Positions 17,662 through 32,974 of a DNA stretch of 36,091 bases are shown here, one piece after another. A program made the translations under genes and the position numbers. Numbering within the stretch: position 1 is the stretch's first letter; every line of letters starts with the position of its first letter. The notes beneath the pieces were generated by a model that saw nothing but the letters and a program-made list of their open reading frames with translations, did no database searches and was not told the DNA's origin. Origin of the DNA: Methanobacteriota archaeon (GTDB taxonomy: Archaea > Thermoplasmatota > Poseidoniia > Poseidoniales > Poseidoniaceae); the NCBI GenBank assembly GCA_018645535.1, contig JABGWN010000052.1, forward strand, positions 1 through 36,091. The letters are read 5' to 3'.

Positions 17662-17757
17662 AACGTTGCTTCTTGGGCTTTCAATGCGAACTACCACCCC
17701 TTCATATACCTTACCGATGAGATTGCACCCATTGAATTGATTGGAAAGTCTCTTCAA

Positions 17758-20179: not shown

Positions 20180-21469
20180 ATGGAAGAAGAGACGCCACTT
20201 ACCAAAATGGCCATCATTCGGAGTCTCCTCTCACCATCAACAGCCCCGCACCTCATTCTTCTCGTGATTGCAGCAAGCCTCCTTCATATCATGGCCAAGG
20301 TTGGATCAGAACAGGCGGCAAGCTTCGGATTTATTGCCTTCTCTACAGCCTATATTTTGCTCGCACCTGCATCCAACAAGGAAGTGTTTCGCAAATTAAT
20401 CACATTTGAAAAACAAGAGGATTCGTCATTTGCTGATTCAATGAAGCAGCGATTAAAAATCCTAATCGTACCCACTTCCTTTGGTTTGGTCTTGTGGGGA
20501 ATCATGTCTTTTACCATGGGCGAAGGTAATACCCTCTCTGACGTTGGAACAATCATACCCCCTACGCTGGGTTTCTTATTCGTGGCTTGGGCTGCAGCAC
20601 AAGGATGGTTTTTTGCTTATGCAACCTCAAATTCGATTAAGTCACCAGAGACAGGGACTGTTAAGGATACCTCTACGCACTCCCCAATTCCGTCTTTGAT
20701 AACAACTTCAACGCTGATGGTTGCTATGACGATTCTCGTCACAGAAGCCTTCAGATTCAGCCTTGGAAACAGTTCTTTTAGCGTCTGGCCATATGTTGCT
20801 TCATTTGCAGTGTTTGCCATCAGCGTGAGGATTACCTGGCCCCTTCGGCAAAAAGCCTCTGCCCATACTGCAACGCATGCAGTTGCAAAACGATGGTTTC
20901 ATGTGACTCAACTTTTCATCACTTGGCACGTTCTAAGCATCGTGCGTAGCATCGATTCTGCTTCATCGAATACACTCATATTTATCGAAGAACTCGTATT
21001 GATGATCTTGACTGTTTTCATGGCTATTTGGGCACTAACGAGTAAAGCAGACGGACGCAAATCCACCCTTTTCACCAAAGATAACGCCTTGTTCTGGGGT
21101 GTAGCCTTTGGATATGCATATGCTGGAAGTGTGGCAATGATCACTTCAGTTTTCGATGACTTGACTGCAGTCCTCATCGGAGGACACATCCTTGTTGTTG
21201 CAACAGTTGTATGGGCACAACGCTCGCTACTTGACTCAAGAATCAACCGTATGTTCAAGGATTTTGATATCAAAGAGTCTGTCGAATCAATCGATATCGC
21301 ACCTCTAAAAGAGGAAGAGACTGAGGAGACGACACCTGAAGAAATCCAAACTTCAACAGAAGAAGATGAAACGTTAGAGAGTATAGGCGACCCGGTCGAT
21401 TGGAACCAAAAGCCAGAATCTATTGGTGACGAAACAAACTGGGAAGAGGATGTTGAACTTCTGGATTAA
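20180..21469 (+). CDS. Hypothetical polytopic membrane protein with long acidic C-terminal tail
   Basis: 429-aa ORF with about 9-10 hydrophobic helices. The tail is rich in E/D/T and contains a duplicated ESIGD...W motif. I recognise no family. Confidence 0.55.
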   Translation: MEEETPLTKMAIIRSLLSPSTAPHLILLVIAASLLHIMAKVGSEQAASFGFIAFSTAYILLAPASNKEVFRKLITFEKQEDSSFADSMKQRLKILIVPTSFGLVLWGIMSFTMGEGNTLSDVGTIIPPTLGFLFVAWAAAQGWFFAYATSNSIKSPETGTVKDTSTHSPIPSLITTSTLMVAMTILVTEAFRFSLGNSSFSVWPYVASFAVFAISVRITWPLRQKASAHTATHAVAKRWFHVTQLFITWHVLSIVRSIDSASSNTLIFIEELVLMILTVFMAIWALTSKADGRKSTLFTKDNALFWGVAFGYAYAGSVAMITSVFDDLTAVLIGGHILVVATVVWAQRSLLDSRINRMFKDFDIKESVESIDIAPLKEEETEETTPEEIQTSTEEDETLESIGDPVDWNQKPESIGDETNWEEDVELLD

Positions 21470-22374
21470 TCGTCTGCAATTCCTGATAAAAGCATTACAA
21501 CTCGGATAACTCCCTCGAGTTCGGGAGTTACTCGAGCGCCAAGAATGACTTGTGCTTCTGAGTCTACTGCTGATGTCAACGCCGTTGCAATCTCATCGAC
21601 TTGTCCGATTGTCATGCCGAGTCCTCCTTCAATTTGAAGCAGACAACCTCGTGCGCCGCCGACGTTCATAGGAGCCAGTGGTGCTTTGATTGTGGCTTCA
21701 AATAATTCGTTCAAGTTATCGTGATGCCCCGAACCGACCAGCATAGTCGAGGCTCCAGGCTGACGTACGATTGCCCTCAAGTCCATTAGATCTAGATTGA
21801 TTAAACCCATTGAGAGTAATGTTCGAACCAAGCCATCGACCAAATCCTCGACCCATTCAGAGCCCATACTCCAATCCTTCCCTCTTGTACGAGCCTGTCG
21901 CGCTAGACGTTCCAATGAGAGTTGCACACATACATCCGAATGATGTTCAAGACGTTTTAGTTCGGTTGTAGCAATTTTTAGGCGAGTAGGTTGTTGGGAA
22001 AACGGCAAGGCTGCAATAGAGAGAACTGTTGCTCCGTGAAGTTTAGCTTGTCGTGCAAATTCATGCGAGGCCCCGGTTCCTGTCCCTCCACCAAGTCCGG
22101 TAACGAGAATCACAAGTTCAGCGTTCTCTAAGAATGGGCGTGTACGTGAGGCAAGGCCTCGCATCCTCTGCTCGGCCAGTGGAGGCAAGGCAGCGCAACC
22201 AAGTTGGTCCAGAGTGTGCCCAAGTCTCATGATGTGTCCGTCTTCAGTTTGAGGAAACGATTCATCCGCATCGATCATGAGAAGAGATGCGCCTCCGCCT
22301 CTTGCATGTGCCCTAGAAGCCCATGTGCATCCTAGACCACCAATCCCAACAATGAGGATTTGCGAGGACTCCAT
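21466..22374 (-). CDS. Divergent short FtsZ/tubulin-superfamily protein
   Basis: The tubulin signature LVTGLGGGTGTGAS is intact. The protein is collinear with FtsZ throughout: ILIVGIGGLG (G-box region), LSIAALPF, GLINLDLMDLRAIV (cf. INLDFADV), ASTMLVGSG, GARGCLLQIEGG, IRVVMLLSGI. A strong SD (AAGGAGGGTTC) precedes ATG 22374. At 302 aa it has no C-terminal linker or tail. Confidence 0.75.
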   Translation of the reverse strand: MESSQILIVGIGGLGCTWASRAHARGGGASLLMIDADESFPQTEDGHIMRLGHTLDQLGCAALPPLAEQRMRGLASRTRPFLENAELVILVTGLGGGTGTGASHEFARQAKLHGATVLSIAALPFSQQPTRLKIATTELKRLEHHSDVCVQLSLERLARQARTRGKDWSMGSEWVEDLVDGLVRTLLSMGLINLDLMDLRAIVRQPGASTMLVGSGHHDNLNELFEATIKAPLAPMNVGGARGCLLQIEGGLGMTIGQVDEIATALTSAVDSEAQVILGARVTPELEGVIRVVMLLSGIADD

Positions 22375-22409: not shown

Positions 22410-22712
22410 TTACTTTTCGATAAATCGCATGTATCGACGACGAGCATCTCGAGCCCAAGCATTATCTGGCTCCAACCCGAGAACTCGATCATAATATCGA
22501 ACAGCGGTCTCGAATTCGGATAGATGACGACCGTAAAGGTGCCCCAGATTAGAGAGTACGGGAATGCAATCATTGTCCACTTCAAGCATTTGTAACAGGA
22601 GTTTTTCTGCAGCACCAAGACTGTTTCGAATCATGAATTCTTCAGCCTCGTCGAGTTGCTCAAGTTGTTCGGTTGATAGGTCATAGATGTTGTCAAATGG
22701 TGTCTCGGCCAT
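22410..22712 (-). CDS. Small TPR-like repeat protein (~100 aa)
   Basis: MAETPFDN...AEKLLLQMLEVDNDCIPVLSNLGHLYGRHLSEFETAVRYYDRVLGLEPDNAWA fits about two TPR units (the LG.LY...A...Y...L...P.N pattern). ATG 22712; the longer track ORF from 22811 has no supporting features. It lies 35 nt upstream of the FtsZ-like gene on the same strand. Confidence 0.5.
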   Translation of the reverse strand: MAETPFDNIYDLSTEQLEQLDEAEEFMIRNSLGAAEKLLLQMLEVDNDCIPVLSNLGHLYGRHLSEFETAVRYYDRVLGLEPDNAWARDARRRYMRFIEK

Positions 22713-22855
22713 GCTTCTGCGAGGCAGGTTGAAGCAATGAATCCTTGCTTTGTTAAAATTTGAAGGCAAAACGCTACACTGCAAGACAATAATATTGTGC
22801 TCCACCAACAATGTTTAAGGGGTCCTTGTTAGTCGAGAACCCATAGGGTATAGCC

Positions 22856-23680
22856 ATGCTAACAACCTCATTCACCAAGCGACGCCCCATTGTCGTCGCA
22901 GTGTTGCTCTTGCTCCTCTTACCAGGGCTCGCCACGTCTCTGCCGACAGGTATTGGCGGTCAACAACAGAACGGAGGGGAAACAATCGACGATGTTGCCA
23001 AAGAAGGTTGCCTTTGCCACAATGGCGTTCCCGCAAATGAGGTTCAAATTATTCTTGATGGCGTTCCATTCGCATGGACTGCTGGAGAAACCTACGATTT
23101 GGATCTCCACATTATTGGCGGGCCAGATGCAGGAGGTCAATACTCGGCAGGATTCGCAATGAGAGTATCGAGCGGAATTCTTTCCGGCATTGGCGCTGAC
23201 AACTGGCAAGAAGATGAACAATCACTCACCCACACTTCTGCATCAGCTGCTGAGTCCGATCGAATGTGGGAAATCTCATGGGTCGCTCCTGCGGAAGGTG
23301 AAGGAACAATCGTTTTCTGGATAACCGGGAACAGTGTTAACGGCGACGGAGGCCTAGGAAATCAAATCGAAGATATGTGGAATCAACTTACGTTTGCACT
23401 CATCGAAGGCGACGAAGAAAGTCTGGCACGAGGCACACGAACTCTCTTCGCTGGTGATGGAAACGTCAGCCCGCCTGAACCATCATCTCTCGGAACTGAC
23501 CTTCACCACATGGGAGCCAAACTCCGAGCCCACTGGCTTGGATTACTGGGCTTCGGAGCGGTCATCATGTGCATTGTGTTTGCAGGACTCATGCTCCGCT
23601 ATGGCTTCTCTACTTCTTACGAAGGGCGAAGCAACCAACTCCGACTACGGTACAAACTCATGAGAAGAGGTGATCAGTGA
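22856..23680 (+). CDS. Secreted, C-terminally anchored Reeler/DOMON-like beta-sandwich protein
   Basis: Signal peptide (RRPIVVAVLLLLLLPGLATS). The order and spacing of GCLCHNG ... AGETYDLDL.I.G ... AGFAMRVSSG ... LTHTSAS ... ISWVAPAEGEGTIVFWITG resembles the Reeler-domain consensus (C..H.G / GF..qA / tH. / .W.AP). C-terminal TM helix WLGLLGFGAVIMCIVFAGLML. The family call is tentative. Confidence 0.45.
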   Translation: MLTTSFTKRRPIVVAVLLLLLLPGLATSLPTGIGGQQQNGGETIDDVAKEGCLCHNGVPANEVQIILDGVPFAWTAGETYDLDLHIIGGPDAGGQYSAGFAMRVSSGILSGIGADNWQEDEQSLTHTSASAAESDRMWEISWVAPAEGEGTIVFWITGNSVNGDGGLGNQIEDMWNQLTFALIEGDEESLARGTRTLFAGDGNVSPPEPSSLGTDLHHMGAKLRAHWLGLLGFGAVIMCIVFAGLMLRYGFSTSYEGRSNQLRLRYKLMRRGDQ

Positions 23681-24126
23681 TGTACGACGATACAATTGAG
23701 AATCTACTGAAGGGTGTTGCTGATGGTTCCATCTCTGTCAAAGATGCACGTACTGCTCTCGAAGGCGTTGAGCTCACAGAAGAGCAAATGGATGCTGCAA
23801 TCGACCATGGAGTCCACAATGTTGCAGAATCAGGTACAATCGTTAGCGCTTCCCTCGCACCATCGGGAGCATCTTACCTCACTATGTTCTTCTTCGCTTG
23901 GGGAATCTTTTGGATATGCTATTGGTCCTTTTCACTCATTTACGGATTGGCCAATGATTGGGATCAACAGAACATGGCATTCCATCTTGCCATGGTCCTA
24001 ACAACGCTCATACTTATGGGGCTGGTTTATCTGAAATTCATCATACCAGACACCATTATCGTAAAACATTCTCAGAACAAATATGTTCCTGAACATCAGA
24101 AAGACTGGAAGGAGTACAAGTGGTGA
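23680..24126 (+). CDS. Hypothetical small membrane protein (soluble N-terminal ~55 aa + 2-3 TM helices)
   Basis: ATG 23680 overlaps the upstream stop (TGATG). The TM segments are YLTMFFFAWGIFWICYWSFSLIYGL and FHLAMVLTTLILMGLVYLKFII. It lies between the Reeler-like and Rieske genes. Confidence 0.5.
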   Translation: MYDDTIENLLKGVADGSISVKDARTALEGVELTEEQMDAAIDHGVHNVAESGTIVSASLAPSGASYLTMFFFAWGIFWICYWSFSLIYGLANDWDQQNMAFHLAMVLTTLILMGLVYLKFIIPDTIIVKHSQNKYVPEHQKDWKEYKW

Positions 24127-24131
24127 TTTCT

Positions 24132-24974
24132 ATGGCAAAAGATTACGATTTAGTTATCCCCGAGTCAAAGACTGGGGCACTCGAAGTTGCAGGAAACGTC
24201 ATCAATCGAAGACAGTTCTTGCGCTACGGGTTTAACACCGCTACAGGCGTTCTTGCTGCATCATTGGGCGTTCTTGGATTTGCATCTATTCTCCTCCCGC
24301 CTGGTGGAGGCACTGCAGGTGACCTGTCTGTCAAATTCTGGGCAAAGGGTCGAGAAGACACAGCATGGTATGGTGCAAAGCACTTACAGACGATGACGAA
24401 GGCTGACTTCGTTGCAGAGGCTGCAAAGACAAACACAGTCACATCTGGAGCCTCAGGTGTTTGGAATGGCGTCCCTGTTGTCGTCACATATGTTGAAAGC
24501 TCAAAGTGGGAAGGAACACCAGAAGACAACAACAAAGCCCGATTCATCATGATGGAAGGTTACGATGAAAGCGGGAAATATGTTGGCCACTTCGAAGACA
24601 TGGTTGCTCAAGACGAGCGAATTTATCCTTCTGACGATCTCATCATGGTTTTCGGAAGATGCACTCACCTTTGTTGCATCCCAGGATGGCAACTCGTTTC
24701 GAACCAATACACAGATGACTCATGGACACCAGGAGGTACTGATGACGGAGGAACCAAACTGTTCTGCATCTGCCACTCATCTCGATTTGATACAACAGCT
24801 CTTGAGATGAATACAAACAGAAACCGTTCAAACGGTTCAACATTCAAGTATGCTGGTGTTCGAAAAGCTGGAGGGCCTGCTCCCGTTGGACTTCCGCTTA
24901 TTCCGATCGTTCTGAACAATGATGTCGTAGAGGGCATTACCGATTATGTCGACTGGCTGACATACTGCGACTGA
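24132..24974 (+). CDS. Rieske [2Fe-2S] iron-sulfur protein with twin-arginine signal/anchor
   Basis: The RRQFLRYG Tat motif is followed by a hydrophobic helix. Cluster boxes are CTHLCC (box I, C-x-H) and CICHSSRFD (box II, C-x-x-H). ATG 24132 is preceded by GGTG; the track start at 24120 is GTG. Confidence 0.85.
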   Translation: MAKDYDLVIPESKTGALEVAGNVINRRQFLRYGFNTATGVLAASLGVLGFASILLPPGGGTAGDLSVKFWAKGREDTAWYGAKHLQTMTKADFVAEAAKTNTVTSGASGVWNGVPVVVTYVESSKWEGTPEDNNKARFIMMEGYDESGKYVGHFEDMVAQDERIYPSDDLIMVFGRCTHLCCIPGWQLVSNQYTDDSWTPGGTDDGGTKLFCICHSSRFDTTALEMNTNRNRSNGSTFKYAGVRKAGGPAPVGLPLIPIVLNNDVVEGITDYVDWLTYCD

Positions 24975-24984
24975 GGTGAATAAT

Positions 24985-25851
24985 ATGACAACAATGTTCT
25001 GGATTCTTTGGTTCTTTATTGCCTTCATTATCGTCTTAGTGGCCTTCACTCTCCGTAAAGAGACTGAAGAAATGCCCCGCCGTGAAATTCTACGTGCAGT
25101 AGAATCAACAGGAGGCATGGGTGTTTCCGAACGAGCATTCCTGTGGGTGTTTTCTTGGATGGATACCCGATTCCGTATTCAAGATTACTGGAACATGTCA
25201 AAAGGTGCCTATTACAACATGCATCGACAAATGCCTCTCACACACGCCGAGAAATACAAACTTCGAATCATTTGGTATTGGTACCCGCTCTACTGTCTTG
25301 GTGGAATTTCCTTCCTGAGTTTCATCGTTCTCGTCATCACAGGAACCGTTCTTGGAATTTACTATGTTCCAGGTGGAGAAGGCGATCCTTCGCCTGCGTA
25401 TGCCTCGATGGAATTCATTATGCTTGAGCTCCCATTCGGGTACATTATCAGAGCAGTGCACCATTGGACGACGCACTTCATGGTAGCATCAGTCTTCCTA
25501 CACATGTGTCGCGTCTACTTCACAGGAGCATACCGAAACCCTCGTGAACTAAACTGGTTAATCGGTGTAGCGCTCATGGCTCTTACAATCGTCTTTGGAT
25601 ACTCTGGCTATCTCCTTCCGTGGGACAGTCTCGCATACGGTGCTGCTGTCATTGGAATTAACCTTGCCAATTCATCTCCATTGATTGGAAAATACATTGC
25701 AACTCTTTTGTTTGGAGGTTCTTCACTGACGCCTCGAACCGTAACCCGTATGTATTTCATACACGTCTTTATTCTACCAGTGATAGTGACCACATTGATC
25801 ATTATTCACTTGTTTATTGTTTGGGTACAAGGCATTGCGGAGCCGCATTGA
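24985..25851 (+). CDS. Cytochrome b6-type (N-terminal half of cytochrome b) with extra N-terminal TM helix
   Basis: Blocks seen: YCLGGISFLSFIVLVITGTVLGIYYVP; helix B RAVHHWTTHFMVASVFLHMCRVYFTGAY; GYSGYLLPWDSLAYGAAVI; helix D RMYFIHVFILPVIVTTLIIIH. It ends ...VQGIAEPH like b6. GAGGTG lies 6 nt upstream of ATG 24985. Confidence 0.9.
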   Translation: MTTMFWILWFFIAFIIVLVAFTLRKETEEMPRREILRAVESTGGMGVSERAFLWVFSWMDTRFRIQDYWNMSKGAYYNMHRQMPLTHAEKYKLRIIWYWYPLYCLGGISFLSFIVLVITGTVLGIYYVPGGEGDPSPAYASMEFIMLELPFGYIIRAVHHWTTHFMVASVFLHMCRVYFTGAYRNPRELNWLIGVALMALTIVFGYSGYLLPWDSLAYGAAVIGINLANSSPLIGKYIATLLFGGSSLTPRTVTRMYFIHVFILPVIVTTLIIIHLFIVWVQGIAEPH

Positions 25852-25866
25852 TACGAGGTGTGACAA

Positions 25867-28683
25867 ATGGGATTAATGGAAAATTTTGGTAGAGTAGCTA
25901 CATCCTACATGGATGAGAAAGCAAAGCTCGAAGAAGCAGGCGAGAAGCGAACACGTACACGAATGGGTCACGGATTCTGGCCTCATGAAGTGCTGCGAGA
26001 TACAATTCTCTTTTCATTCATGGCAGCAGTTCTTCTGTTCTATGCGTGGTTGATTCCACCGCCACTTCACGGTGCTGCAGATCCATATGCGCAAGCAGGA
26101 TTCGTATTCCCTGATTGGTACGTTCTGTTCTCATACGGATACTTGCGTTGGGGAGAATATCTCCCTCAATTTACAGTCCCTACAGGATTCATTGGTGATA
26201 TTGTTGGCCAACCTGTATTTGCATGGAACGCTGCATGGTGGGGCGCTGCTCTAACTGGAATCCCTATTGGCATCCTCACACTCCCACCTCTAATTGGAGG
26301 ACGTGAAAAGAGACCTGTCGAAGACCCGTGGTTTGCCGCTGCAGGAGCAGTTTATTTGGCACACATTTGGTTTATCTCTGTATTCTCGATCAACATCTTC
26401 CTTGAACTGTACGGGAAAAACCGGTCTGATTATTGTAAACTGGATTCACATGGAGACTTACTGTGTGGTACAAGAGCGCCTTGGATGGCAGATATTTTCA
26501 ATGCAGTACCTTGGATTCTGACGGGTTTATTGTTGTGGATTGTGATTTACTTCATTGCCCGAAACGTGATGGTCAAGGCCTGGGGTTCTGGATTCACCCC
26601 TGCTCATGGAAAGCGCCTCATCGTCGGCGCACTGGTTATCTCTGCCGGAGCATCTGTTGCAACATTCGACACATACGACAACGGTTTCTGGGAAGCTGGC
26701 GGTCTTTTGACCATCAAAGGGCTAACGCACGATTATTATCCTGAACTGGAAGCAATGCGAACTCAACCAACTGATGTACACGTACACGAAATAAATGAGT
26801 TCACTGATGACCGGGGGTACTCCGATGATGGTATTGTGCCTGCCGCTGCATGGACAGACTGGCAAATCTACCAGCCAGCGCGAGAAGTGCTTATCGATTT
26901 CAGTGACGCAAATAATCACCAAGATGCGGAAGAAGGCCTCAATGCAGCTGGAACAACAGCATCCTTCTATGGTGGAGACGGATTCACAATGAGTGGAACA
27001 TTCACTGTAACAGAAGATACGAACAACTTCCCAGACGGACATCATGAATCTGTTGAATCACTTACAACGGACGTCGTTTGTGAATATCGATCGAGTGAGC
27101 GCAAAATCGATGGTGTCAATACTGCAACAATGCTCACCAGTTCGCTCAGCGTCACAGATGCGAAGGGGAAGGTCATGACCTCCTTCTCCGGATGTGTAGG
27201 GGATGAGATTACTCTTGAACCAGGTGTCTACGACTACGAATACAGTCTTCAAGCATCAGGAGCTCTTGCACAGAACAATTCGATCATGACCGAAACAACA
27301 TTCTCAATTCGTGCATATCAACCACTCCTTCTATGGAACAGCAATGCTGGCCCACTCGCTGGAACTGTTGTCAATCTCAGTGATACCGCTACAATAGCAG
27401 CATCCTCTGGAACATACAGCGATGTTGTCAACCCATCATACCACGTCAACCCGAAGGCACTCGATGCAAAACTCACGTATGCTATGTTCATTCCATGTTT
27501 GACATTTGGTGCAATCGTCGTCGTTGTCTTGAGATCAATGGCACGAGGATATGAATTCGAAATGAACAAGTGTTACGGTTGCGATTTGTGTGACGACGCT
27601 TGTCCAGTTCGATTGTTCAATGGTGGAGACAAACTCAACATCATTTACAATTCGTGGAACAATGAAGACGATGGTGTACCAATGTACTCCTGTCTGACGT
27701 GTACTGCCTGTACTAATGCATGCCCACAACTCGTCAACTATGACTCCTATGTTGATATTCGTAGAAGCCTCATCGTAGGCGGTCCGGCGGCTGAAATACC
27801 TCACACAGTGTTGCAAGCAGTCTTGGCTGCAGAAGCTGAAGAAGCATCAAACGAGGACTTCATCCCAGTAGAAGAGTACCCAATCACATCCAATGTTGGC
27901 TATTATCCAGGATGCGTTGACTATCTCGACCAAGAGATGGTCTTCTCCCACGTCAATGAAGGAGATATGAATCTTGGAGATTCGACAACTGCTGCCTTCA
28001 CTCTCTTCGAAGAAATGGGGCATGATGTATCGTACCTCGGCCGTGATTTCTTGAAGTGCTGTGGACACGATCAAAAGTGGCAAGGACTCACTGAAGTATT
28101 TGATAAACTCAAAGCCTACAATCAAAAGAAGATTGAAGCATCAGGCATTGATACACTCGTCTCATCATGTGCTGAATGTTTCCGAACCTTTGCTCGAGAT
28201 TACGAACTTGAAGGAGTCAAGGTCATGCACACAACAGAGTATCTCATCGAAAGCGGATTCGACATGGAACTCTCAACTGATGCTACAACAGTTACCTATC
28301 ACGACCCATGTCGACTTGGTCGTCAAATGGGAATCTATGATGAGCCTCGTGAACTGATCAACGCTGTAGAAGGTGTAGATCTCGTCGAGATGGAACACAG
28401 TGGAGAGGACGCTATGTGCTGTGGCGTCTCCAGTATGATGTCATGCAACGAAAATGCACGTGCTCTACGTGTGGCTCGTATGGAAGAAATCAAGTCCACT
28501 GGTGCTGACACCATGCTCACCTCATGCCCGAAGTGTGTTTCACACTTTGAGTGCTTGAAGTTTGAAGGTGATGAGCGATACGAAGACATTGAGATTCTCG
28601 ATGTTGTATCCTTCCTCGCACGAGAAGTTAACGCAAAGAAGAGCGAATTGACTCAACCTACACTCGGTGAAGTTGAAGCTTGA
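25867..28683 (+). CDS. Fusion: cytochrome b C-terminal half/subunit IV-like membrane domain + ~270-aa extracytoplasmic domain + HdrD/GlpC-type module (2x[4Fe-4S] ferredoxin motifs + 2 CCG domains)
   Basis: The FWPHEVLRD...PDWYVLFSYGYLRW (PEWY-type Qo motif) region has TM helices through residue ~265. Another TM helix is at ~536-555. Ferredoxin motifs are CYGCDLCDDACP and CLTCTACTNACP. The CCG domains are GC(683)...KCCGHD(731/732)...SCAEC(768/771) and PC(815)...MCCGVS(851/852)...SCPKC(887/890). It is a single 938-codon frame. GAGGTG lies 8 nt upstream of ATG 25867. Confidence 0.85.
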   Translation: MGLMENFGRVATSYMDEKAKLEEAGEKRTRTRMGHGFWPHEVLRDTILFSFMAAVLLFYAWLIPPPLHGAADPYAQAGFVFPDWYVLFSYGYLRWGEYLPQFTVPTGFIGDIVGQPVFAWNAAWWGAALTGIPIGILTLPPLIGGREKRPVEDPWFAAAGAVYLAHIWFISVFSINIFLELYGKNRSDYCKLDSHGDLLCGTRAPWMADIFNAVPWILTGLLLWIVIYFIARNVMVKAWGSGFTPAHGKRLIVGALVISAGASVATFDTYDNGFWEAGGLLTIKGLTHDYYPELEAMRTQPTDVHVHEINEFTDDRGYSDDGIVPAAAWTDWQIYQPAREVLIDFSDANNHQDAEEGLNAAGTTASFYGGDGFTMSGTFTVTEDTNNFPDGHHESVESLTTDVVCEYRSSERKIDGVNTATMLTSSLSVTDAKGKVMTSFSGCVGDEITLEPGVYDYEYSLQASGALAQNNSIMTETTFSIRAYQPLLLWNSNAGPLAGTVVNLSDTATIAASSGTYSDVVNPSYHVNPKALDAKLTYAMFIPCLTFGAIVVVVLRSMARGYEFEMNKCYGCDLCDDACPVRLFNGGDKLNIIYNSWNNEDDGVPMYSCLTCTACTNACPQLVNYDSYVDIRRSLIVGGPAAEIPHTVLQAVLAAEAEEASNEDFIPVEEYPITSNVGYYPGCVDYLDQEMVFSHVNEGDMNLGDSTTAAFTLFEEMGHDVSYLGRDFLKCCGHDQKWQGLTEVFDKLKAYNQKKIEASGIDTLVSSCAECFRTFARDYELEGVKVMHTTEYLIESGFDMELSTDATTVTYHDPCRLGRQMGIYDEPRELINAVEGVDLVEMEHSGEDAMCCGVSSMMSCNENARALRVARMEEIKSTGADTMLTSCPKCVSHFECLKFEGDERYEDIEILDVVSFLAREVNAKKSELTQPTLGEVEA

Positions 28684-28688
28684 AGCGT

Positions 28689-28979
28689 TTAATCTTCGGT
28701 TGGAGGAGTTCCTTCCTCATCCATCCCCACGATCTCATAGTTTGATGGGAAGAGCGCAATGATGACTCCAGCGATGAGACTGATCAATCCCCACATGAAC
28801 TCTTGTTGAACAAATAACAGTTCAAGAGCGATAACACAGAGAACAAGACCGCCGATGTTTGAAGTCCAAACAAGCGTCTTGAACGTGCCGAGCGATACAC
28901 CAGTTGTACCATCTTTCCGATATGGTCCAAACTCTCCACCGAAACGTTGTGCTGATGGTTCTTTTCCTTTCTTTGACAT
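28689..28979 (-). CDS. Hypothetical small 2-TM membrane protein
   Basis: 96-aa ORF, last in a tightly packed minus-strand gene string. TM helices are IGGLVLCVIALELLFV and GLISLIAGVIIALF. No family recognised. Confidence 0.4.
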   Translation of the reverse strand: MSKKGKEPSAQRFGGEFGPYRKDGTTGVSLGTFKTLVWTSNIGGLVLCVIALELLFVQQEFMWGLISLIAGVIIALFPSNYEIVGMDEEGTPPTED

Positions 28980-28989
28980 CGTTCATTCC

Positions 28990-29322
28990 TCATCGGTCTA
29001 TCATGGTGATTGCATCTGTTGGACAAGCGAGAACACATAGCCTGCATCCAGTGCAAGCATCTCTGATAATTTTCGCTTTCTGATTGCTTTCAACATTGAG
29101 TAAGGGGCTTCGCATGGCCATCTTGTACATCTCAATGGCATCATCATCACATACGATTGTGCATTGATCACAGCCGATACATAATGATTCTTGGACAAAA
29201 GCGACAGCAGTCTCACCTCCCTTGAGGGATGAATGCTGTACACCTCGCTGACGATTGAGGCTGGAGCGTATACGCTTCGCCTCTTCTTCGCGACGACGCT
29301 TAAGGTCATCCGAGGACGTCAT
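28990..29322 (-). CDS. 2x[4Fe-4S] dicluster ferredoxin with basic N-terminal extension
   Basis: CIGCDQCTIVCDDDAI and CTGCRLCVLACPTDAI are two CxxCxxCxxxC(P) motifs. The N-terminal ~40 aa are rich in R/K/E. ATG 29322 overlaps the upstream gene end by 17 nt. Confidence 0.8.
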   Translation of the reverse strand: MTSSDDLKRRREEEAKRIRSSLNRQRGVQHSSLKGGETAVAFVQESLCIGCDQCTIVCDDDAIEMYKMAMRSPLLNVESNQKAKIIRDACTGCRLCVLACPTDAITMIDR

Positions 29323-29996: not shown

Positions 29997-31199
29997 TCAT
30001 GACGTTTTCATCGCTTCTAATTCAAGTCCCATAGCGAGCATTGAGATTTCAGCAACCAAGGCGTGCCAATTATGTGCATGAGTCATATATCCAGGCTCTT
30101 GATCAGAAGTGACAAATTGTGCGCTCGGAGAATTAAGATTACCAATGTCATCTCGTTTTGCATTAACTCTGTAAAACCAGGAGGAAGCATCACCATCGAC
30201 GAGATAGACCACTGGCTCTACTGGAAATCCTTCTTCTGTTTTCATAAGAGTCGGAACGCCTTCTTGTATCAAGAAATCTTCAACATCCGTGGTTCCTTTC
30301 CCATACATTAGTTTCTTCATCTTGCGGTTCGATAGATTGAGAAGTTGCTCACCTGAAGTCACAGTCATAATGCCTAAGCCATAAGTTCCACGATTATTTT
30401 TGACATACACAACGGGCTCTCTGTCAAGACCAAGTGATTGATACCGCTTTGAAAGAAGGGCGATAAAATCATCAACCTCTTTTGCTAATTTTACTCGACA
30501 GGCTTCTTTTTCCAAACATTTATTCTCAGAGACGAATGAATCACAAAGTAAGTGCCATGGTTCTATTCCAATTATTTCGCTTACTTCTTCAACAAGGGGA
30601 CGGAGGTGTTCAAAATGCATGGATTTCTTTCTCTTGTGCCAACCCATTTGTGGATTTGGCAAGATATGGGGGGATGAAAGGCCCTGCAAACCTTCGTCAG
30701 TTAGATCGTTGTTGAGCAGAATAAAGTCTGGTTGTTCTCCGTTTACCAGAAGAACATCGTTGATAATCTCGACTTGATTCAATGGAAGGGGACCAAGAAG
30801 TCCATTGAGTGTTTCGAACCCATCAAGTTCGGGATTACCGACTGTACATCGGTATCCTGCCGATTCAACCAATTTACACAACGTTCGAAGATTCTCAACA
30901 TATCCTTGATTTCTCGTATGAGATTCGGGATAGATATGAACCCATTTGCAATTGGGATTATTTCGTTTAATGTGTTCTGAAATACGATTTGTGAGATGAG
31001 GTAAATCCGAGTCCGAGGTATTGTTGAAACCAGCAGGGAATTGATTCGCATCGACAACAGCTATTTTCCATCCAGCATCTCTGACATCTACACTTCCGTA
31101 AATTGGGACCTCTATTGACGAACGCTTTTCATTCATCCATTTCGTCAATTCATCACGCTTTTCTTCTAGTCGATTGCTTAGTTCGTGTAGGAATGTCAT
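29997..31199 (-). CDS. GshA-type (Acidithiobacillus-type, PF08886-like) glutamate--cysteine ligase candidate
   Basis: These blocks resemble my recollection of the rare proteobacterial GshA family: PIYGSVDVRDAGWKIAVVDANQFPAGFNN, YPESHTRNQGYVENL, LLNNDLT, GWHKRKKSMHF, RGTYGLGIMTVTSGE...LSNRKMKKL, IQEGVPT, EPVVYLVDG...FYRV....D.GNLNSP. It is not verified by search. Confidence 0.5.
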   Translation of the reverse strand: MTFLHELSNRLEEKRDELTKWMNEKRSSIEVPIYGSVDVRDAGWKIAVVDANQFPAGFNNTSDSDLPHLTNRISEHIKRNNPNCKWVHIYPESHTRNQGYVENLRTLCKLVESAGYRCTVGNPELDGFETLNGLLGPLPLNQVEIINDVLLVNGEQPDFILLNNDLTDEGLQGLSSPHILPNPQMGWHKRKKSMHFEHLRPLVEEVSEIIGIEPWHLLCDSFVSENKCLEKEACRVKLAKEVDDFIALLSKRYQSLGLDREPVVYVKNNRGTYGLGIMTVTSGEQLLNLSNRKMKKLMYGKGTTDVEDFLIQEGVPTLMKTEEGFPVEPVVYLVDGDASSWFYRVNAKRDDIGNLNSPSAQFVTSDQEPGYMTHAHNWHALVAEISMLAMGLELEAMKTS

Positions 31200-32974
31200 T
31201 AGATCACCTCATTCAATAAATCATCAAGAGTTCGGTTCTGCAAGTTAAGCCCATGTCCTTGCAAGTGGATGGATTCAAACAATCCAAGCCCTAAGGCAAT
31301 TTCTGGTTGTTTGTGTAGAACCTTTTCACACATAGTCCATTTTGACGCAATCTCTTGTATTTGAGATGCATATTCGTCAAGACAAGAAGTAAGCAGTGTG
31401 GGCGATGTAGCAGTTCCAGCAGGCAACTTCTTTCGATAAACAACAGATTCAGGGAGGTTTGTCAACGCTGCAGCTGAACGTAAAGCCTTCTTTTCCAGAC
31501 CCGTCGATGGAAGTCGTTGGTCCATTGGAAGTTGCATTGCCTCTTGCCGATGTGCACGGGAAAGGAAAGGAACTCGAACTTCAAGTGAATGAGCCATAGA
31601 GTGGCGATCTACAAGACGAAGTTGAAAATTACTGAGTTGACCATGATCCATCTCGAATTGTAATGTCTTTTGCAGCGTACTCAAGTGCGTTGAAGGGCGA
31701 TGGTCTTGGGTCCACCAACGTGAATCCTCTGACATCGATTCGGTTTGAAGAGTTGCAGCAAAGGGGTGATCTAGATCAGACATGCGTGCTTCAAGTTGTT
31801 GTTGATGATTTTTCAAATCGACATATCGGGGGTATCCAGCATGTATCTCGTCTGCTCCTTGACCGCATAACCCAACTCGAACAACCTTCGACATTTCCTG
31901 AAACAATGGTTGGAAGAATAATACTGAGACGTCTAAGTCCTCACCATGCCAAGAGAGAGAAGGCAAATGACGCGAGAATGAATCAGAATCCATGATGGAT
32001 TGATGATGTTCTAAATCCAATGCAGATGCTACGAGTTCAGCTGCCATCCAATCAGGATTATCTTCGCTTTCTGCCACAGTCCAGCAAGCGGGAGTTGGAC
32101 GACCATACCTCTTAGCAGCATCACTCGCAACGGCAGCGACCAAGGAGGAATCAAGTCCACCTGAGAGAACAATACCCACTGGTACGTCAGACATCAATCG
32201 TTGACCAACACTCTCAATAAATCCATCGAGAAGAAGGCTTGAACCTTGGTTCACATCCCATGATTCCGTGGGATTAAACATGGGGCTGGAGAATCGAGCA
32301 TGACTTTCTAATGTTGCAATACCATCATTCACAGTCCAAACTTCAACAGTTCCTGGTCGAACTTGATGTACACCCTGAAACAATGATGTTGCATCAAGAG
32401 GGTATTCCCAAACAAGTCGGGCAAGGAGAGCCTCCATGTCCATTTTAGGACTGTATTGCGAATGTGCATGGAAAGCTTTGGCTTCACTTGCAAAGAGTAG
32501 CGAACGGTCAATGGTTGTTCTCAAGAGAGGTTTAATGCCCATTTCATCACGAGCAAGAATCAATTGTTTATTCACAGGATCCCAAAGACTCAATGCGAAC
32601 ATTCCATCAAGTCGTTTCAACCACTTGCAATGGTCCTCAGCGTCTGGATGTTTTATTCCGTGTGTTGCACTTTTATGCAGTGCAAGAATTGTTTCACTAT
32701 CACCCATGGTCTTCCAAGGATAGGTCTCATTACTCTGTCTAAGGTTCTGATAGTTGTAGATTTCACCATTGACAATGAGAATGCAACCATGATTAGAAGA
32801 GATGGGTTGAGGACTTCCCTCCAAATCGACAATTGCGAGTCGTGAATGCCCGAGAGAGATGTGTTCATCATCCCAGAACCCAGTGCCATCTGGCCCTCGA
32901 TGATGTTGAAGTCGTGTCATACTTTTGACAACAGAAGGTTCTGGCGAACCAAACATGCCAGAAATCCCACACAT
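31199..32974 (-). CDS. Asparagine synthase-like glutamine amidotransferase (AsnB family)
   Basis: There is an N-terminal Ntn nucleophile (MCGISGMFG), then RGPDG, IVNGEIYN, and the PP-loop VGIVLSGGLDSSLVAAV in the synthetase domain. Its stop overlaps the downstream start by 1 nt (31199). Confidence 0.85.
   Translation of the reverse strand: MCGISGMFGSPEPSVVKSMTRLQHHRGPDGTGFWDDEHISLGHSRLAIVDLEGSPQPISSNHGCILIVNGEIYNYQNLRQSNETYPWKTMGDSETILALHKSATHGIKHPDAEDHCKWLKRLDGMFALSLWDPVNKQLILARDEMGIKPLLRTTIDRSLLFASEAKAFHAHSQYSPKMDMEALLARLVWEYPLDATSLFQGVHQVRPGTVEVWTVNDGIATLESHARFSSPMFNPTESWDVNQGSSLLLDGFIESVGQRLMSDVPVGIVLSGGLDSSLVAAVASDAAKRYGRPTPACWTVAESEDNPDWMAAELVASALDLEHHQSIMDSDSFSRHLPSLSWHGEDLDVSVLFFQPLFQEMSKVVRVGLCGQGADEIHAGYPRYVDLKNHQQQLEARMSDLDHPFAATLQTESMSEDSRWWTQDHRPSTHLSTLQKTLQFEMDHGQLSNFQLRLVDRHSMAHSLEVRVPFLSRAHRQEAMQLPMDQRLPSTGLEKKALRSAAALTNLPESVVYRKKLPAGTATSPTLLTSCLDEYASQIQEIASKWTMCEKVLHKQPEIALGLGLFESIHLQGHGLNLQNRTLDDLLNEVI

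What the first reader, a model, noticed from the sequence alone, without database searches (positions are those of the whole stretch)
25867..28683. Subunit IV (cyt b C-terminal half) fused to a cytoplasmic HdrD/GlpC-type Fe-S/CCG module: a Rieske/cyt b complex wired to a heterodisulfide-reductase-like site
This is one uninterrupted 938-codon ORF. Residues ~35-235 are subunit IV-like, with PDWY in the PEWY Qo-motif position. Helix parity (five TM helices, an outside domain, then one more TM helix) and the basic residues after the last helix (RSMARGYEFEMNK) place the C-terminal ~380 aa in the cytoplasm. That region has two CX2CX2CX3CP motifs and two complete CCG domains; the second is spaced C-X35-CC-X34-C-X2-C. 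This is the HdrD/DsrK/GlpC architecture. Known HdrD-like modules partner with NarI-type di-heme cytochromes b (HdrE, DsrM, HmeC), not with Rieske/cyt b complexes. My inference is that electrons from the low-potential b-heme chain of the Qo bifurcation (bL->bH->ci) are delivered to a cytoplasmic disulfide- or other substrate-reducing site instead of, or besides, Qi. That would be a quinol-driven bifurcating reductase built on a b6f scaffold, and I am not aware of this being described.
Basis: partly seen in the sequence, partly recalled or inferred. Interest (0 to 1): 0.9.

Follow-up and report, generated by a model that had tools for sequence, protein, structure and literature searches.

The report
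Subunit IV fused to HdrD module
In marine group II archaea, the last membrane subunit of the respiratory Rieske/cytochrome b complex carries a built-in cytoplasmic iron-sulfur module of the heterodisulfide-reductase type. This arrangement is conserved and almost undescribed, and it probably connects cytoplasmic ferredoxin-type electron carriers directly to the quinone cycle.

Summary
Window 25867-28683 (+) is one 938-aa ORF with four parts: a subunit IV (PetD)-like N-terminus carrying an invariant PDWY, an inserted two-helix hairpin plus a variable outside beta-sandwich, one more TM helix, and a cytoplasmic HdrD-type module with two CX2CX2CX3CP motifs and two complete CCG domains.

Pfam does not see subunit IV directly. 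A family profile does reach shorter relatives that score above threshold for Cytochrom_B_C and carry the same Fe-S module.

The fusion is not an artefact. More than 120 full-length MGII homologs exist on many independent contigs. At least 561 loci turned up in archaeal species genomes, and the 80 best are mostly Thermoplasmatota. In MGIII the CCG part is a separate gene.

The operon is always DUF7318 - Rieske - cytochrome b6 - fusion. It is followed by an RnfB-like ferredoxin in MGII, or by HdrA, MvhD (FlpD), FrhB or HdrCB genes in other, sediment- and soil-derived relatives.

The module is therefore best read as an n-side electron port to protein carriers, probably ferredoxin to quinone. The only literature found is one passing remark about a related lineage. 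I rate it a new variant of known kinds.

The parts
22856..23680 (+). First operon gene, 274 aa. It has a signal peptide, a 'choice-of-anchor V' domain and a C-terminal TM anchor, and carries an invariant G-C-x-C-H motif. It is a possible p-side partner of the complex.
   Evidence: NCBIfam NF041895 at 2.3e-23. There are no Pfam or PDB hits. It is conserved upstream of the operon in MGII and MGIII at 27-57% identity, with GCxCH invariant. Its stop overlaps the next gene's start by 4 nt.
23677..24126 (+). Small membrane protein, 149 aa, DUF7318-like. It is a conserved first or second gene of the cluster across Thermoplasmatota.
   Evidence: Weak PF24002 hit. The precomputed Pfam annotation also lists PF24002 for the gene in this position in L004 and L007. 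By blastp it is present in nearly all related loci.
24120..24974 (+). Rieske iron-sulfur protein, 284 aa, with an RRQFL twin-arginine motif and the CTHLCC / CICHSS cluster boxes.
   Evidence: TIGR01416 at 1.8e-10, partial match. The motifs were read from the translation. Homologs in relatives carry PF00355.
24976..25851 (+). Cytochrome b6 (four-helix N-terminal half of cytochrome b), 291 aa. All four heme His ligands are present, as is the Cys that binds heme cn/ci in b6f.
   Evidence: PF00033 at 4.4e-42. The best PDB hits are b6f cytochrome b6 at E 1e-43. Cys107 in LYCLGG aligns with Cys35 in FYCLGG.
25867..28683 (+). The fusion ORF, 938 aa.
25957..26406 (+). Subunit IV (PetD)-like core, aa 31-180: helices E, F and G. 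The Qo-site motif PDWY lies at aa 82-85 (nt 26110-26121).
   Evidence: PDW is invariant in 55 divergent family members.
26407..26676 (+). Lineage-specific insertion, part 1 (aa 181-270). It comprises a p-side loop with the invariant Cys190/Cys200 and a two-helix hairpin (TM4, TM5).
   Evidence: Absent from the short-form relatives. Hydropathy; invariant Cys.
26677..27456 (+). Lineage-specific insertion, part 2 (aa 271-530). This is an outside-facing beta-sandwich domain and the most variable part of the protein.
   Evidence: Column conservation is 0.45-0.68 here against 0.8-0.97 elsewhere. The AF2 beta-sandwich has pLDDT of about 90-95. Only weak GOLD-domain and tail-fibre fold matches were found.
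27472..27528 (+). Last TM helix, aa 536-554. It corresponds to the fourth helix of the short forms, at the position of helix H of long cytochrome b, and returns the chain to the cytoplasm. The conserved junction R-x-M-A-R-G-Y-E-F-E-M-N-K-C-Y-G-C follows it.
   Evidence: L536 invariant, Y562 nearly invariant.
27559..27729 (+). HdrC-like ferredoxin domain, aa 565-621, with two CX2CX2CX3CP motifs for two cubane [4Fe-4S] clusters.
   Evidence: Pfam Fer4_8/9/10. All eight Cys are invariant in 55 sequences.
27898..28548 (+). HdrB-like pair of CCG domains, aa ~678-894, with ten conserved Cys in the Hdr pattern.
   Evidence: PF02754 at 3.9e-23 with two stretches. Foldseek matches EtfD, LutA and HdrB. 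Compared with EtfD it keeps CC rather than CT and has Glu770 rather than His. It is 43% identical to a soluble Methanoperedens HdrD-like protein.
28990..29322 (-). RnfB-like 2x[4Fe-4S] ferredoxin, 110 aa. It is a conserved neighbour of the fusion and a candidate redox partner.
   Evidence: Pfam Fer4_21 and others. The best NCBIfam hit is rnfB TIGR01944 at 49 bits, below its cutoff. It is adjacent in all MGII contexts seen, and sits on the same strand 5 nt downstream in L009.
28689..28979 (-). Small membrane protein, 96 aa, that travels with the ferredoxin gene.
   Evidence: A homologous ~100-aa ORF follows the ferredoxin in L007, L008 and L009.

Best explanation
The ORF is subunit IV of a b6f-type Rieske/cytochrome b complex of a marine group II (Poseidoniales) archaeon. 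A fourth membrane crossing brings its C-terminus back to the cytoplasm, where it carries an HdrD-type module: two cubane [4Fe-4S] clusters followed by two CCG-domain clusters.

The gene belongs to a translationally coupled operon: anchored outside protein, DUF7318, Rieske, cytochrome b6, fusion. A conserved RnfB-like ferredoxin gene lies next to it.

I propose that the module is a hard-wired electron port on the n-side (cytoplasmic side) of the complex. A chain of four Fe-S clusters would link a docking protein carrier to heme bn/ci and the Qi quinone site. That carrier is the RnfB-like ferredoxin in MGII, and HdrA/MvhD/FrhB flavin-based bifurcation modules in other, sediment- and soil-derived relatives.

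In aerobic, heterotrophic MGII the most likely direction is inward. Reduced ferredoxin would pass electrons through the Fe-S chain to bn/ci and on to quinone. The quinol would then be re-oxidised at Qo, so complex III doubles as a ferredoxin:quinone oxidoreductase.

Shown: domain identities, topology parity, conservation, the split and fused variants, and the gene neighbourhoods.
Inferred: that the proximal cluster is within electron-transfer distance of a heme, which partner docks, and the direction of flow.
For: Identity:
- CCG and Fer4 domains.
- Subunit IV through the profile chain and PDB hits restricted to PetD.
- b6f-type cytochrome b6 with the ci-binding Cys immediately upstream.

Reality of the fusion:
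- More than 120 full-length homologs at 60-98% identity, some on 50-60 independent contigs.
- At least 561 related loci in GTDB species genomes. The fusion-bearing loci among the best 80 are from Thermoplasmata, MGIII, Geothermarchaeales and Bathyarchaeia.
- Short forms have four TM helices and then the same junction and module.
- MGIII and some Thermoplasmata encode SUIV+Fer4 and the CCG protein as two overlapping genes. This is a classic fusion/fission signature of interacting parts.

Partner logic. The gene after the module is:
- an RnfB-like ferredoxin in MGII;
- a polyferredoxin in MGIII;
- a Fer4-FlpD protein in L004;
- HdrC-HdrB-HdrA-FlpD in L005/L006;
- HdrA-HdrA-FlpD in L013;
- FrhB-HdrA-FlpD-HdrCB in L010.

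Other support:
- The module is 43% identical to a soluble Methanoperedens HdrD-like protein that heads an HdrC-B-A-MvhD-FrhB cluster.
- The closest solved structure, EtfD, is exactly such a wire from a cytoplasmic protein donor through CCG and [4Fe-4S] clusters to a b heme and menaquinone, with all gaps <=9 A.
- The first cluster Cys lies only about 14 residues after the last TM helix.
- Authors working on Angelarchaeales independently suggested ferredoxin entry at complex III, and MGII are reported to hold an orphan RnfB.
Against: - No cofactor distances could be measured. The tools give single-chain models only, and the TM part of the model is of low confidence.
- Fold search did not recover subunit IV.
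- The CCG cysteine pattern is the catalytic Hdr type and not the shielded EtfD type. A pure wire would not obviously need that.
- Passing ferredoxin electrons straight to quinone wastes about 0.3 V (general bioenergetics).
- The heme ci cysteine is missing in the MGIII partners (Ser) and in one Bathyarchaeia partner, so ci cannot be the obligatory entry point.
- In the window, the ferredoxin gene lies on the opposite strand.
- The direction of flow is undetermined by any result here.
Confidence: 0.5

Rival explanations
1. The low-potential electron of the Qo bifurcation travels bL -> bH (-> ci) -> Fe-S chain to an Hdr-type catalytic site that reduces a cytoplasmic disulfide, either a low-molecular-weight thiol disulfide or a protein disulfide or trisulfide. 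This would make a quinol-driven bifurcating reductase.
For: - All ten CCG Cys are conserved. Eight are invariant and two are >=90% in 55 sequences averaging 28% column identity.
- The first CCG keeps CC where EtfD has CT. An invariant Glu770 replaces the His583 that makes EtfD's cluster non-catalytic.
- HdrB is a clear structural match.
- In HdrDE and DsrMK, electrons flow from membrane quinol to a cytoplasmic disulfide (established knowledge).
- A glutamate-cysteine ligase gene (PF08886, 1e-91) lies 1.3 kb away in the window and is also present in L009.
Against: - No thiol-cofactor or DsrC-like gene is conserved with the operon.
- GshA is absent from the otherwise syntenic L007/L008, so its proximity looks like an indel in a conserved backbone.
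- The conserved partners are protein electron carriers.
- Some relatives (L005/L006, L010) encode HdrB/HdrC as well as the fused module. That is redundant if both reduce a disulfide.
- Electrons would leave the b chain on the n-side instead of completing the Q cycle, halving proton yield in an aerobe (inference).
- MGII are reported as aerobic heterotrophs, and exposed noncubane clusters are expected to be oxygen-sensitive.
Confidence: 0.2
2. Outward flow to protein carriers. Low-potential electrons from the Qo bifurcation leave through the module to the ferredoxin, or to HdrA/MvhD in relatives. This would produce low-potential reductant by reverse electron transport, as has been proposed for anammox Rieske/cytochrome b complexes. 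In the relatives it would couple quinone-based and flavin-based bifurcation in one assembly.
For: - The same neighbourhood evidence as the best explanation. It is direction-neutral.
- The related Angelarchaeales are proposed ammonia oxidisers, and an ammonia oxidiser would need uphill electron flow (inference).
- The anammox precedent is from my own knowledge (Kartal et al. 2013) and was not checked here.
Against: - MGII are heterotrophs with no evident need for reverse electron flow.
- b-heme potentials are normally far above ferredoxin, so a second energy input would be required. This is possible only where HdrA is present, and MGII lack it next to the operon.
Confidence: 0.12
3. EtfD-like function. 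The module accepts electrons from electron-transferring flavoprotein (ETF), so that fatty-acid and amino-acid oxidation feeds the quinone pool through the Rieske/cytochrome b complex.
For: - EtfD is the best sequence and fold match among solved structures: E 6.4e-22, and 1e-12 and 2.8e-15.
- MGII are predicted to degrade fatty acids and proteins.
Against: - The EtfD-specific ligands (Cys-Thr, and the His in CxHC) are not present.
- The annotated contexts show no gene with an ETF domain near the operon.
- The conserved neighbour is a ferredoxin.
- The membrane part is subunit IV and not a five-helix NarI-type heme b domain.
Confidence: 0.1
4. Artefact or relic. Either the fusion is an assembly or frameshift artefact, or the Fe-S module is a non-functional or purely structural remnant.
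For: Nothing specific. The only point is that Pfam fails to recognise the N-terminal part.
Against: - Same-length homologs occur on many independent assemblies.
- Conservation is strongest in the PDWY region and in the Fe-S module, at 0.8-0.97 against 0.45-0.68 in the insert.
- All cluster ligands are invariant or nearly so across very divergent members.
Confidence: 0.02

Closest known systems
HdrDE (membrane-bound CoB-CoM heterodisulfide reductase of Methanosarcina)
   Same: A cytoplasmic subunit with two [4Fe-4S] motifs plus two CCG domains carrying the full ten-Cys pattern, attached to a membrane b-type cytochrome that talks to a lipid-soluble electron carrier.
   Different: - The membrane partner here is subunit IV/cytochrome b6 of a Rieske complex with a Qo site, not the NarI-type HdrE.
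- Here the module is covalently fused to the membrane subunit.
- The host is an aerobic heterotroph in which CoM/CoB is not expected.
- HMM scores are far below the equivalog cutoffs.
EtfD / EMO (ETF:menaquinone oxidoreductase, Rv0338c family; PDB 9ojn)
   Same: A single polypeptide with TM helices followed by a Fer4 domain and two CCG domains. It is the best sequence and fold match among solved structures. It is a demonstrated electron wire from a cytoplasmic protein donor to a b heme and quinone.
   Different: - EtfD has a five-helix, single-heme domain of its own. The window protein has no heme ligands of its own and must borrow those of cytochrome b6.
- EtfD's linear [3Fe-4S] ligands (C-T) and His583 are replaced here by the Hdr-type CC and by Glu.
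DsrMK / HmeCD / TmcBC / QmoC of sulfate reducers
   Same: HdrD- or HdrC-like Fe-S proteins coupled, or in QmoC fused, to a membrane cytochrome b, linking the menaquinone pool to cytoplasmic redox chemistry. QmoAB are HdrA-like, which parallels the HdrA genes downstream of the fusion in relatives.
   Different: - All of these use NarI/HdrE-type cytochromes b with no Rieske protein or Qo site.
- There are only weak sub-threshold HMM hits to DsrK, TmcB, HmcF and QmoC.
- No dsrC or aprAB context is present.
Cytochrome b6f with ferredoxin/FNR-dependent cyclic electron flow
   Same: A split cytochrome b (b6 + subunit IV), the heme cn/ci cysteine, and the idea that stromal or n-side ferredoxin electrons enter at the Qi side.
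   Different: - In b6f the donor docks transiently and the route is still debated. Here a four-cluster Fe-S module is covalently attached.
- No cytochrome f and no PetG/L/M/N subunits are present.
- The Qo motif is PDWY instead of PEWY.
Angelarchaeales 'complex III-like' locus (Diamond et al. 2022, PMC9038741)
   Same: [quoted passage not shown]
   Different: The paper gives one sentence only. It does not recognise that the hdrD-like gene is subunit IV, and offers no analysis of distribution, topology, cluster ligands or the HdrA/MvhD-linked variants. MGII are not discussed.

Membership tests
Cytochrome b6f subunit IV / cytochrome b C-terminal half (Pfam PF00032 Cytochrom_B_C) | Significant match to the family model | tested here: not met
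   No PF00032 hit for the window protein even at E<=10. The feature is met only transitively. The family profile hits relatives at E 1e-14 to 1e-24 that themselves pass PF00032, such as P0170 at 9.7e-13 and P0153 at 5.1e-12. hhalign gives 99.4% probability.
Cytochrome b6f subunit IV / cytochrome b C-terminal half (Pfam PF00032 Cytochrom_B_C) | PEWY-type Qo motif in the p-side loop after the first helix, followed by two more TM helices | tested here: met
   PDWY at aa 82-85 is invariant in the family. It aligns with PEWY of PDB PetD chains. Helices lie at 46-64, 126-144 and 161-179.
Cytochrome b6f subunit IV / cytochrome b C-terminal half (Pfam PF00032 Cytochrom_B_C) | Encoded directly after a four-helix cytochrome b6 gene in a Rieske operon | tested here: met
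   Rieske 24120-24974, b6 24976-25851, fusion starting at 25867. The same order holds in the related loci.
Cytochrome b6f subunit IV / cytochrome b C-terminal half (Pfam PF00032 Cytochrom_B_C) | Structural superposition on PetD | tested here: inconclusive
   The TM region of both AF2 models has low confidence (pLDDT ~30-80), and Foldseek did not return PetD.
HdrD (subunit of HdrDE heterodisulfide reductase) | Two [4Fe-4S] ferredoxin motifs plus two CCG domains with CX(n)CCX(n)CXXC | tested here: met
HdrD (subunit of HdrDE heterodisulfide reductase) | Partner HdrE (NarI-type di-heme cytochrome b) | tested here: not met
   No such gene is seen among the Pfam-scanned operon genes and their immediate neighbours. 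The membrane partner is subunit IV/b6.
HdrD (subunit of HdrDE heterodisulfide reductase) | Curated equivalog-level score to Hdr models; CoM-S-S-CoB as substrate | tested here: not met
   HdrB TIGR03288 scores 19.7 bits against a cutoff of 345. The best NCBIfam hit is the TfrB C-terminal part at 112 bits against 385. The substrate is not testable with these tools. MGII are described as aerobic heterotrophs.
EtfD / EMO ETF:menaquinone oxidoreductase | Linear [3Fe-4S] ligand set (Cys-Thr in CCG1) and a His completing the noncubane cluster (C-x-H-C) | tested here: not met
   The window protein has C731-C732 and C768-A-E770-C771. Glu770 is invariant.
EtfD / EMO ETF:menaquinone oxidoreductase | Own five-helix heme b domain; functional link to etfAB | tested here: not met
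   The membrane part is subunit IV-like. The annotated contexts list no gene with an ETF domain. The genome-wide ETF content was not tested.
DsrK (DsrMKJOP) | Equivalog score and a DsrM/DsrC context | tested here: not met
   NF045796 scores 39 bits against a cutoff of 400. No dsr genes appear in any context examined.
b6f-type (heme ci-containing) Rieske/cytochrome b complex | Split cytochrome b, four His heme ligands, and a Cys equivalent to b6 Cys35 | tested here: met
   The Cys is present in 24 of the 37 partner cytochrome b genes examined but replaced by Ser in MGIII. Actual heme ci attachment is not testable here.

The most novel reading that the evidence does not exclude
The b6f-type complex exports the low-potential electron of the Qo quinol bifurcation through the fused Hdr-type module. 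It would go either to a catalytic disulfide-reducing site or, in relatives, into HdrA/MvhD. That would make a quinol-driven bifurcating reductase, and in the sediment- and soil-derived kin a single assembly coupling quinone-based to flavin-based electron bifurcation.
Probability: 0.3. Interest if true: 0.9.

Novelty: new variant of a known kind. Interest (0 to 1): 0.72.

Why it matters
Marine group II archaea are among the most abundant archaea of the surface ocean. Their 'complex III' has been called non-canonical without further explanation, and they have been reported to hold an unexplained orphan RnfB (PMC6336850).

This finding gives both a concrete structure. The complex is a b6f-type Rieske/cytochrome b enzyme whose subunit IV carries an HdrD-type four-cluster module, and the RnfB-like ferredoxin gene sits beside it.

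It adds a new membrane partner class for HdrD-like modules, which until now were known only with NarI-type cytochromes. It also adds a new n-side appendage for Rieske/cytochrome b complexes.

The finding bears on three open questions:
- How ferredoxin made by 2-oxoacid oxidoreductases is re-oxidised in aerobic archaea.
- What the n-side heme ci is for, and whether ferredoxin can feed the Qi site. This has long been debated for cyclic electron flow in b6f.
- Whether Qo-site bifurcation can be tapped for cytoplasmic reductions.

The HdrA/MvhD/FrhB-linked versions in sediment Thermoplasmata, Bathyarchaeia and Geothermarchaeales suggest an evolutionary route from soluble Hdr complexes to a respiratory complex.

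Tried and rejected
- Direct Pfam and NCBIfam scans of the N-terminal 278 aa gave no Cytochrom_B_C hit. I needed a family profile and the 1.84-billion-representative search to bridge the gap.
- PDB sequence searches of the N-terminus give only marginal E-values of 0.07-0.48.
- The first full-length AF2 model, from a shallow 35-sequence alignment, was poor (pLDDT 61.8). A 55-sequence alignment that included short forms raised it to 72.1. The TM part stayed weak, and Foldseek never returned PetD. The structural test of subunit IV is therefore inconclusive.
- I expected the unfused Methanoperedens HdrD-like gene to sit next to a Rieske/cytochrome b cluster. It does not. It heads an HdrC-B-A-MvhD-FrhB cluster.
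- I considered GshA adjacency as a hint to a thiol substrate and downgraded it. The GshA/Asn-synthase-like pair is present in the window and L009 but missing from the otherwise syntenic L007/L008.
- I considered heme ci as the obligatory entry point and rejected it, because MGIII partners have Ser at that position.
- I considered ETF as the donor because EtfD is the top structural hit. It is disfavoured by the ligand pattern and by the lack of ETF-domain genes in the annotated contexts.
- The Rieske protein and the first operon protein gave no useful PDB sequence hits.
- Eight literature searches were made. None found a description of the fusion. One query was rejected for syntax.

Full report
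**1. The observation**

Window 25867..28683 (+) is a single 938-codon ORF. It is the last gene of a tightly packed same-strand cluster:
- 22856-23680: anchored outside protein
- 23677-24126: small membrane protein, DUF7318-like
- 24120-24974: Rieske protein
- 24976-25851: cytochrome b6
- 25867-28683: the ORF

Starts and stops overlap or lie 1-16 nt apart.

Hydropathy finds six hydrophobic segments at aa 46-64, 126-144, 161-179, 213-231, 251-269 and 536-554, with PDWY at aa 82-85. Two CX2CX2CX3CP motifs start at C569 and C609. The two CCG patterns are C683-X47-CC(731/732)-X35-C768-X2-C771 and C815-X35-CC(851/852)-X34-C887-X2-C890. Pfam confirms CCG (E 3.9e-23, two stretches) and the Fer4_8/9/10 dicluster domain at aa 565-621. 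NCBIfam gives only sub-threshold hits, to TfrB, LdhH, GlpC, DsrK, TmcB, GlcF, HmcF and HdrB. The module is therefore a generic HdrD/GlpC-type module and not an equivalog of any named enzyme.

**2. Is the N-terminus subunit IV?**

Pfam does not say so. There is no Cytochrom_B_C hit even at E<=10. Three other lines support it.

(i) The only PDB sequences matched by the N-terminal 278 aa, alone or as a 14-sequence family profile, are b6f subunit IV chains. Six distinct sequences are hit, at E 0.07-0.44, all in the same register over helix E and the PEWY loop.

(ii) The profile was searched against 1.84 billion representative proteins and gave 129 hits. The distant ones pass Pfam's own Cytochrom_B_C threshold: P0170 9.7e-13, P0197 2e-11, P0153 5.1e-12, P0149 8.9e-10, P0150 9.8e-8, P0172 9.5e-7 and P0145 1.4e-4. 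They match the MGII profile at E 1e-14 to 1e-24.

(iii) hhalign of the profile against the unfused 209-aa P0153 gives 99.4% probability and E 5e-22 over 157 columns spanning helices E, F and G, with PDWY aligned.

The upstream gene is a b6f-type cytochrome b6. PF00033 scores 4.4e-42, and the best PDB hits are cytochrome b6 at 1e-43, ahead of actinobacterial QcrB at 1e-29. All four heme His are kept, and Cys107 (LYCLGG) aligns with b6 Cys35. From established knowledge, Cys35 is the covalent ligand of heme cn/ci.

A structural test failed. The TM region of both AlphaFold models is of low confidence, and Foldseek returned no PetD.

**3. The fusion is real, old and widespread**

The full protein has more than 120 full-length homologs at 60-98% identity and 917-969 aa. 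Where sources name them, they come from Poseidoniaceae, 'Euryarchaeota' MAGs and Tara Oceans assemblies, and some were seen on 50-60 independent contigs.

Conservation is highest in the PDWY region (0.97) and in the Fe-S module (0.8-0.96). It is lowest in aa 270-530 (0.45-0.68).

The distant relatives are short forms of 540-630 aa. They have four TM helices, then the same junction (G-Y-x-[FYW]-x-[ML]-N-x-C-Y-x-C) and the same Fer4 + 2xCCG module. Aligning 55 sequences shows that window residues ~181-530 are an insertion between helix G and the last helix. The insertion is a two-helix hairpin plus an outside beta-sandwich, so membrane parity is kept and the module stays cytoplasmic.

A scan of one genome per GTDB species found at least 561 related loci. 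Among the best 80, the fusion occurs in Thermoplasmata, unclassified Thermoplasmatota and 'Methanobacteriota' MAGs, MGIII/Poseidoniia, a Geothermarchaeales MAG and a Bathyarchaeia MAG. In MGIII and some Thermoplasmata, SUIV+Fer4 (about 350-450 aa) and the CCG protein (about 295-330 aa) are separate genes; in the MGIII loci (L073, L074, L082) and in L089 they overlap by 4 nt. This fused/split pattern argues that the parts work together.

An assembly artefact is excluded.

**4. Topology**

- The N-terminus is basic (8 K/R).
- The 65-125 loop that carries PDWY has no K/R.
- The 232-250 loop has 4 K/R and no acidic residue.
- The last helix is followed by R-S-M-A-R.
- The Rieske protein has an RRQFL Tat motif (translation).
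- Short forms have four helices and the MGII form has six, both even numbers from an N-in start.

I accept the cytoplasmic location of the Fe-S module. This is inferred from parity and charge. No topology predictor was available.

**5. Neighbourhood**

The cluster order DUF7318 - Rieske - cytochrome b(6) - fusion is conserved in the related loci examined. What follows the fusion varies but is always a protein electron carrier:
- MGII: a 110-126 aa 2x[4Fe-4S] ferredoxin plus a ~100 aa small membrane protein. In L009 they lie on the same strand 5 nt downstream. In the window the pair is inverted, at 28990-29322 and 28689-28979 on the minus strand.
- MGIII: a 280-340 aa polyferredoxin.
- Thermoplasmata CP070808.1: a 508-aa Fer4-FlpD (MvhD-like) protein.
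- Other Thermoplasmata (L013): two HdrA-like flavoprotein/Fe-S genes plus FlpD. Blastp indicates the same arrangement in L012, L014, L015 and L079.
- The P0170 organism: HdrC - HdrB - HdrA - FlpD, flanked by multiheme cytochromes.
- Geothermarchaeales: FrhB - HdrA - FlpD - HdrCB - GcvH-like - FAD-linked oxidase.

The window ferredoxin's best curated match is RnfB (TIGR01944, 49 bits, below its cutoff). It is therefore very probably the 'orphan RnfB' reported for MGII (PMC6336850) and the 'rnfB-like gene' seen next to complex III in Angelarchaeales (PMC9038741).

The fused module is 43% identical (E 4e-96) over its full length to a soluble Methanoperedens HdrD-like protein. That protein heads an HdrC-HdrB-HdrA-MvhD-HdrA-MvhD-FrhB cluster. 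The same unfused arrangement is common in ANME-2 and Methanosarcinales, and a related one occurs in Bathyarchaeia.

**6. What the cluster ligands say**

The nearest solved structure, by sequence and by fold, is *M. smegmatis* EtfD (9ojn). The structure paper (PMC13083937) reports three things:
- EtfD is a wire: ETF -> CCG clusters -> two cubane clusters -> heme b -> menaquinone, with gaps of 4-9 A.
- Its first CCG has Cys-Thr instead of Cys-Cys and binds a linear [3Fe-4S] cluster.
- His583, in C-P-H-C, completes the noncubane cluster, which makes it non-catalytic and shielded.

In the alignment the window protein has C731-C732 and C768-A-E770-C771. Across 55 divergent family members, the eight Fer4 Cys and eight of the ten CCG Cys are invariant, the other two are >=90%, and Glu770 is invariant. 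The site is therefore Hdr-like and not EtfD-like. This is the best argument for catalysis at the CCG site, though whether the site is solvent-accessible cannot be judged here.

**7. Mechanism**

Shown: a b6f-type Rieske/cytochrome b operon whose subunit IV carries four predicted Fe-S clusters on the cytoplasmic side. The first cluster Cys lies about 14 residues after the membrane helix, and a ferredoxin-type or HdrA/MvhD-type partner gene is conserved alongside.

Inferred: the proximal cluster exchanges electrons with heme bn and/or ci, by analogy with EtfD and HdrDE.

I favour an n-side electron port to protein carriers (confidence about 0.5). In aerobic MGII the flow would be inward: reduced ferredoxin to the Qi quinone, then quinol oxidation at Qo. 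Three things support this:
- The conserved partners are carriers, not thiol-cofactor genes.
- In the HdrA/FrhB-linked relatives, a quinone would be a natural high-potential acceptor for flavin-based bifurcation. This is analogous to FixABCX (established knowledge).
- An independent suggestion of ferredoxin entry exists for Angelarchaeales.

Heme ci cannot be essential to the link. MGIII partners have Ser and one Bathyarchaeia partner has Tyr at that position; 24 of the 37 partner cytochrome b genes examined keep the Cys.

The rivals are:
It is supported by the Hdr-type ligands and the HdrDE/DsrMK precedents. It is weakened by the absence of a conserved thiol system, by the co-occurrence of separate HdrBC in some relatives, and by the loss of Q-cycle yield.
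- Outward flow to ferredoxin or HdrA, i.e. reverse electron transport, confidence 0.12.
- ETF as donor, confidence 0.1.
- Artefact or relic, confidence 0.02.

**8. Comparison with known systems and novelty**

It works like HdrDE, DsrMK, QmoC or EtfD, in which an HdrD/HdrC-type Fe-S module sits on a membrane cytochrome b. It is not a member of any of them. The membrane partner is not NarI-type, the curated HMM cutoffs are missed by wide margins, and EtfD's diagnostic ligands are absent.

On its membrane side it is a b6f-type Rieske/cytochrome b complex with an appendage not known from b6f, bc1 or the Bacillus/Heliobacterium bc complexes, as far as I know.

The library searches found no description of the fusion. 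The nearest is one sentence about an 'hdrD-like gene' near complex III in Angelarchaeales. Public annotations call the protein 'Fe-S oxidoreductase', 'heterodisulfide reductase subunit D' or '4Fe-4S dicluster domain-containing protein'.

I rate it a new variant of known kinds. It is of high interest for archaeal and marine bioenergetics, but its mechanism is open.

Noticed in passing
window 22856-23680 (+); homologs in L007-L009 and in the MGIII loci L071-L074, L078, L081, L082, L084, L085, L087: The first operon gene encodes a signal-peptide protein with a C-terminal TM anchor ('choice-of-anchor V' domain). It has an invariant G-C-x-C-H motif and further invariant His residues across MGII and MGIII at 27-57% identity. 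It might be the missing p-side electron acceptor, a substitute for cytochrome f/c1, but it has no Pfam or PDB match.
   Followed up: partly
window 29997-31199 (-) and 31199-32974 (-); also L009 10962-13966: A glutamate-cysteine ligase gene (GshA, PF08886, 1e-91) abuts an asparagine-synthase-like amidotransferase gene (their coordinates share nt 31199). This may be a pathway for a gamma-glutamylcysteine-derived thiol. The pair is absent from the otherwise syntenic L007/L008.
   Followed up: partly
L071-L074, L078, L081, L082, L084, L085, L087 (MGIII) and L011 (Bathyarchaeia): The cytochrome b6 genes next to the split (MGIII) or fused (L011) module have Ser (PFYSLGG) or Tyr where b6f and MGII have the heme ci-binding Cys. 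Heme ci is probably absent there although the Fe-S module is present.
   Followed up: partly
L004 5343-7973; L012-L018, L069, L079: In many Thermoplasmata, the cytochrome b gene upstream of the fusion is 600-1070 aa long. In L004 it carries an N-terminal Big_5 domain. Large outside-facing additions therefore seem typical of these complexes, as with the beta-sandwich inserted in the MGII fusion.
   Followed up: no
L010 8380-11599: In a Geothermarchaeales MAG the cluster continues with an HdrC-HdrB fusion, a GcvH-like (lipoate-carrier type) protein and a FAD-linked oxidase. This is reminiscent of the lipoate-binding proteins associated with sulfur-oxidising Hdr-like systems.
   Followed up: no
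P0160 (577 aa), P0143/P0166/P0173/P0193 (~450 aa): Other subunit IV fusions exist. P0160 is SUIV + Laminin_G_3. The ~450-aa proteins are SUIV + roughly five to eight more hydrophobic segments + a Fer4 dicluster domain without CCG. The latter probably correspond to the split form seen in L075, L080 and L089.
   Followed up: partly
window 21466-22374 (-) and 22410-22811 (-): A short FtsZ/tubulin-family gene (302 aa) and a small TPR protein lie divergently upstream of the operon. The same arrangement occurs in L007 and L009.
   Followed up: no
window 17737-19206 (+): A 489-aa protein combines a PrmA-like methyltransferase domain with a biotin/lipoate protein ligase (BPL_LplA_LipB) domain. It is also present in L007.
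   Followed up: no
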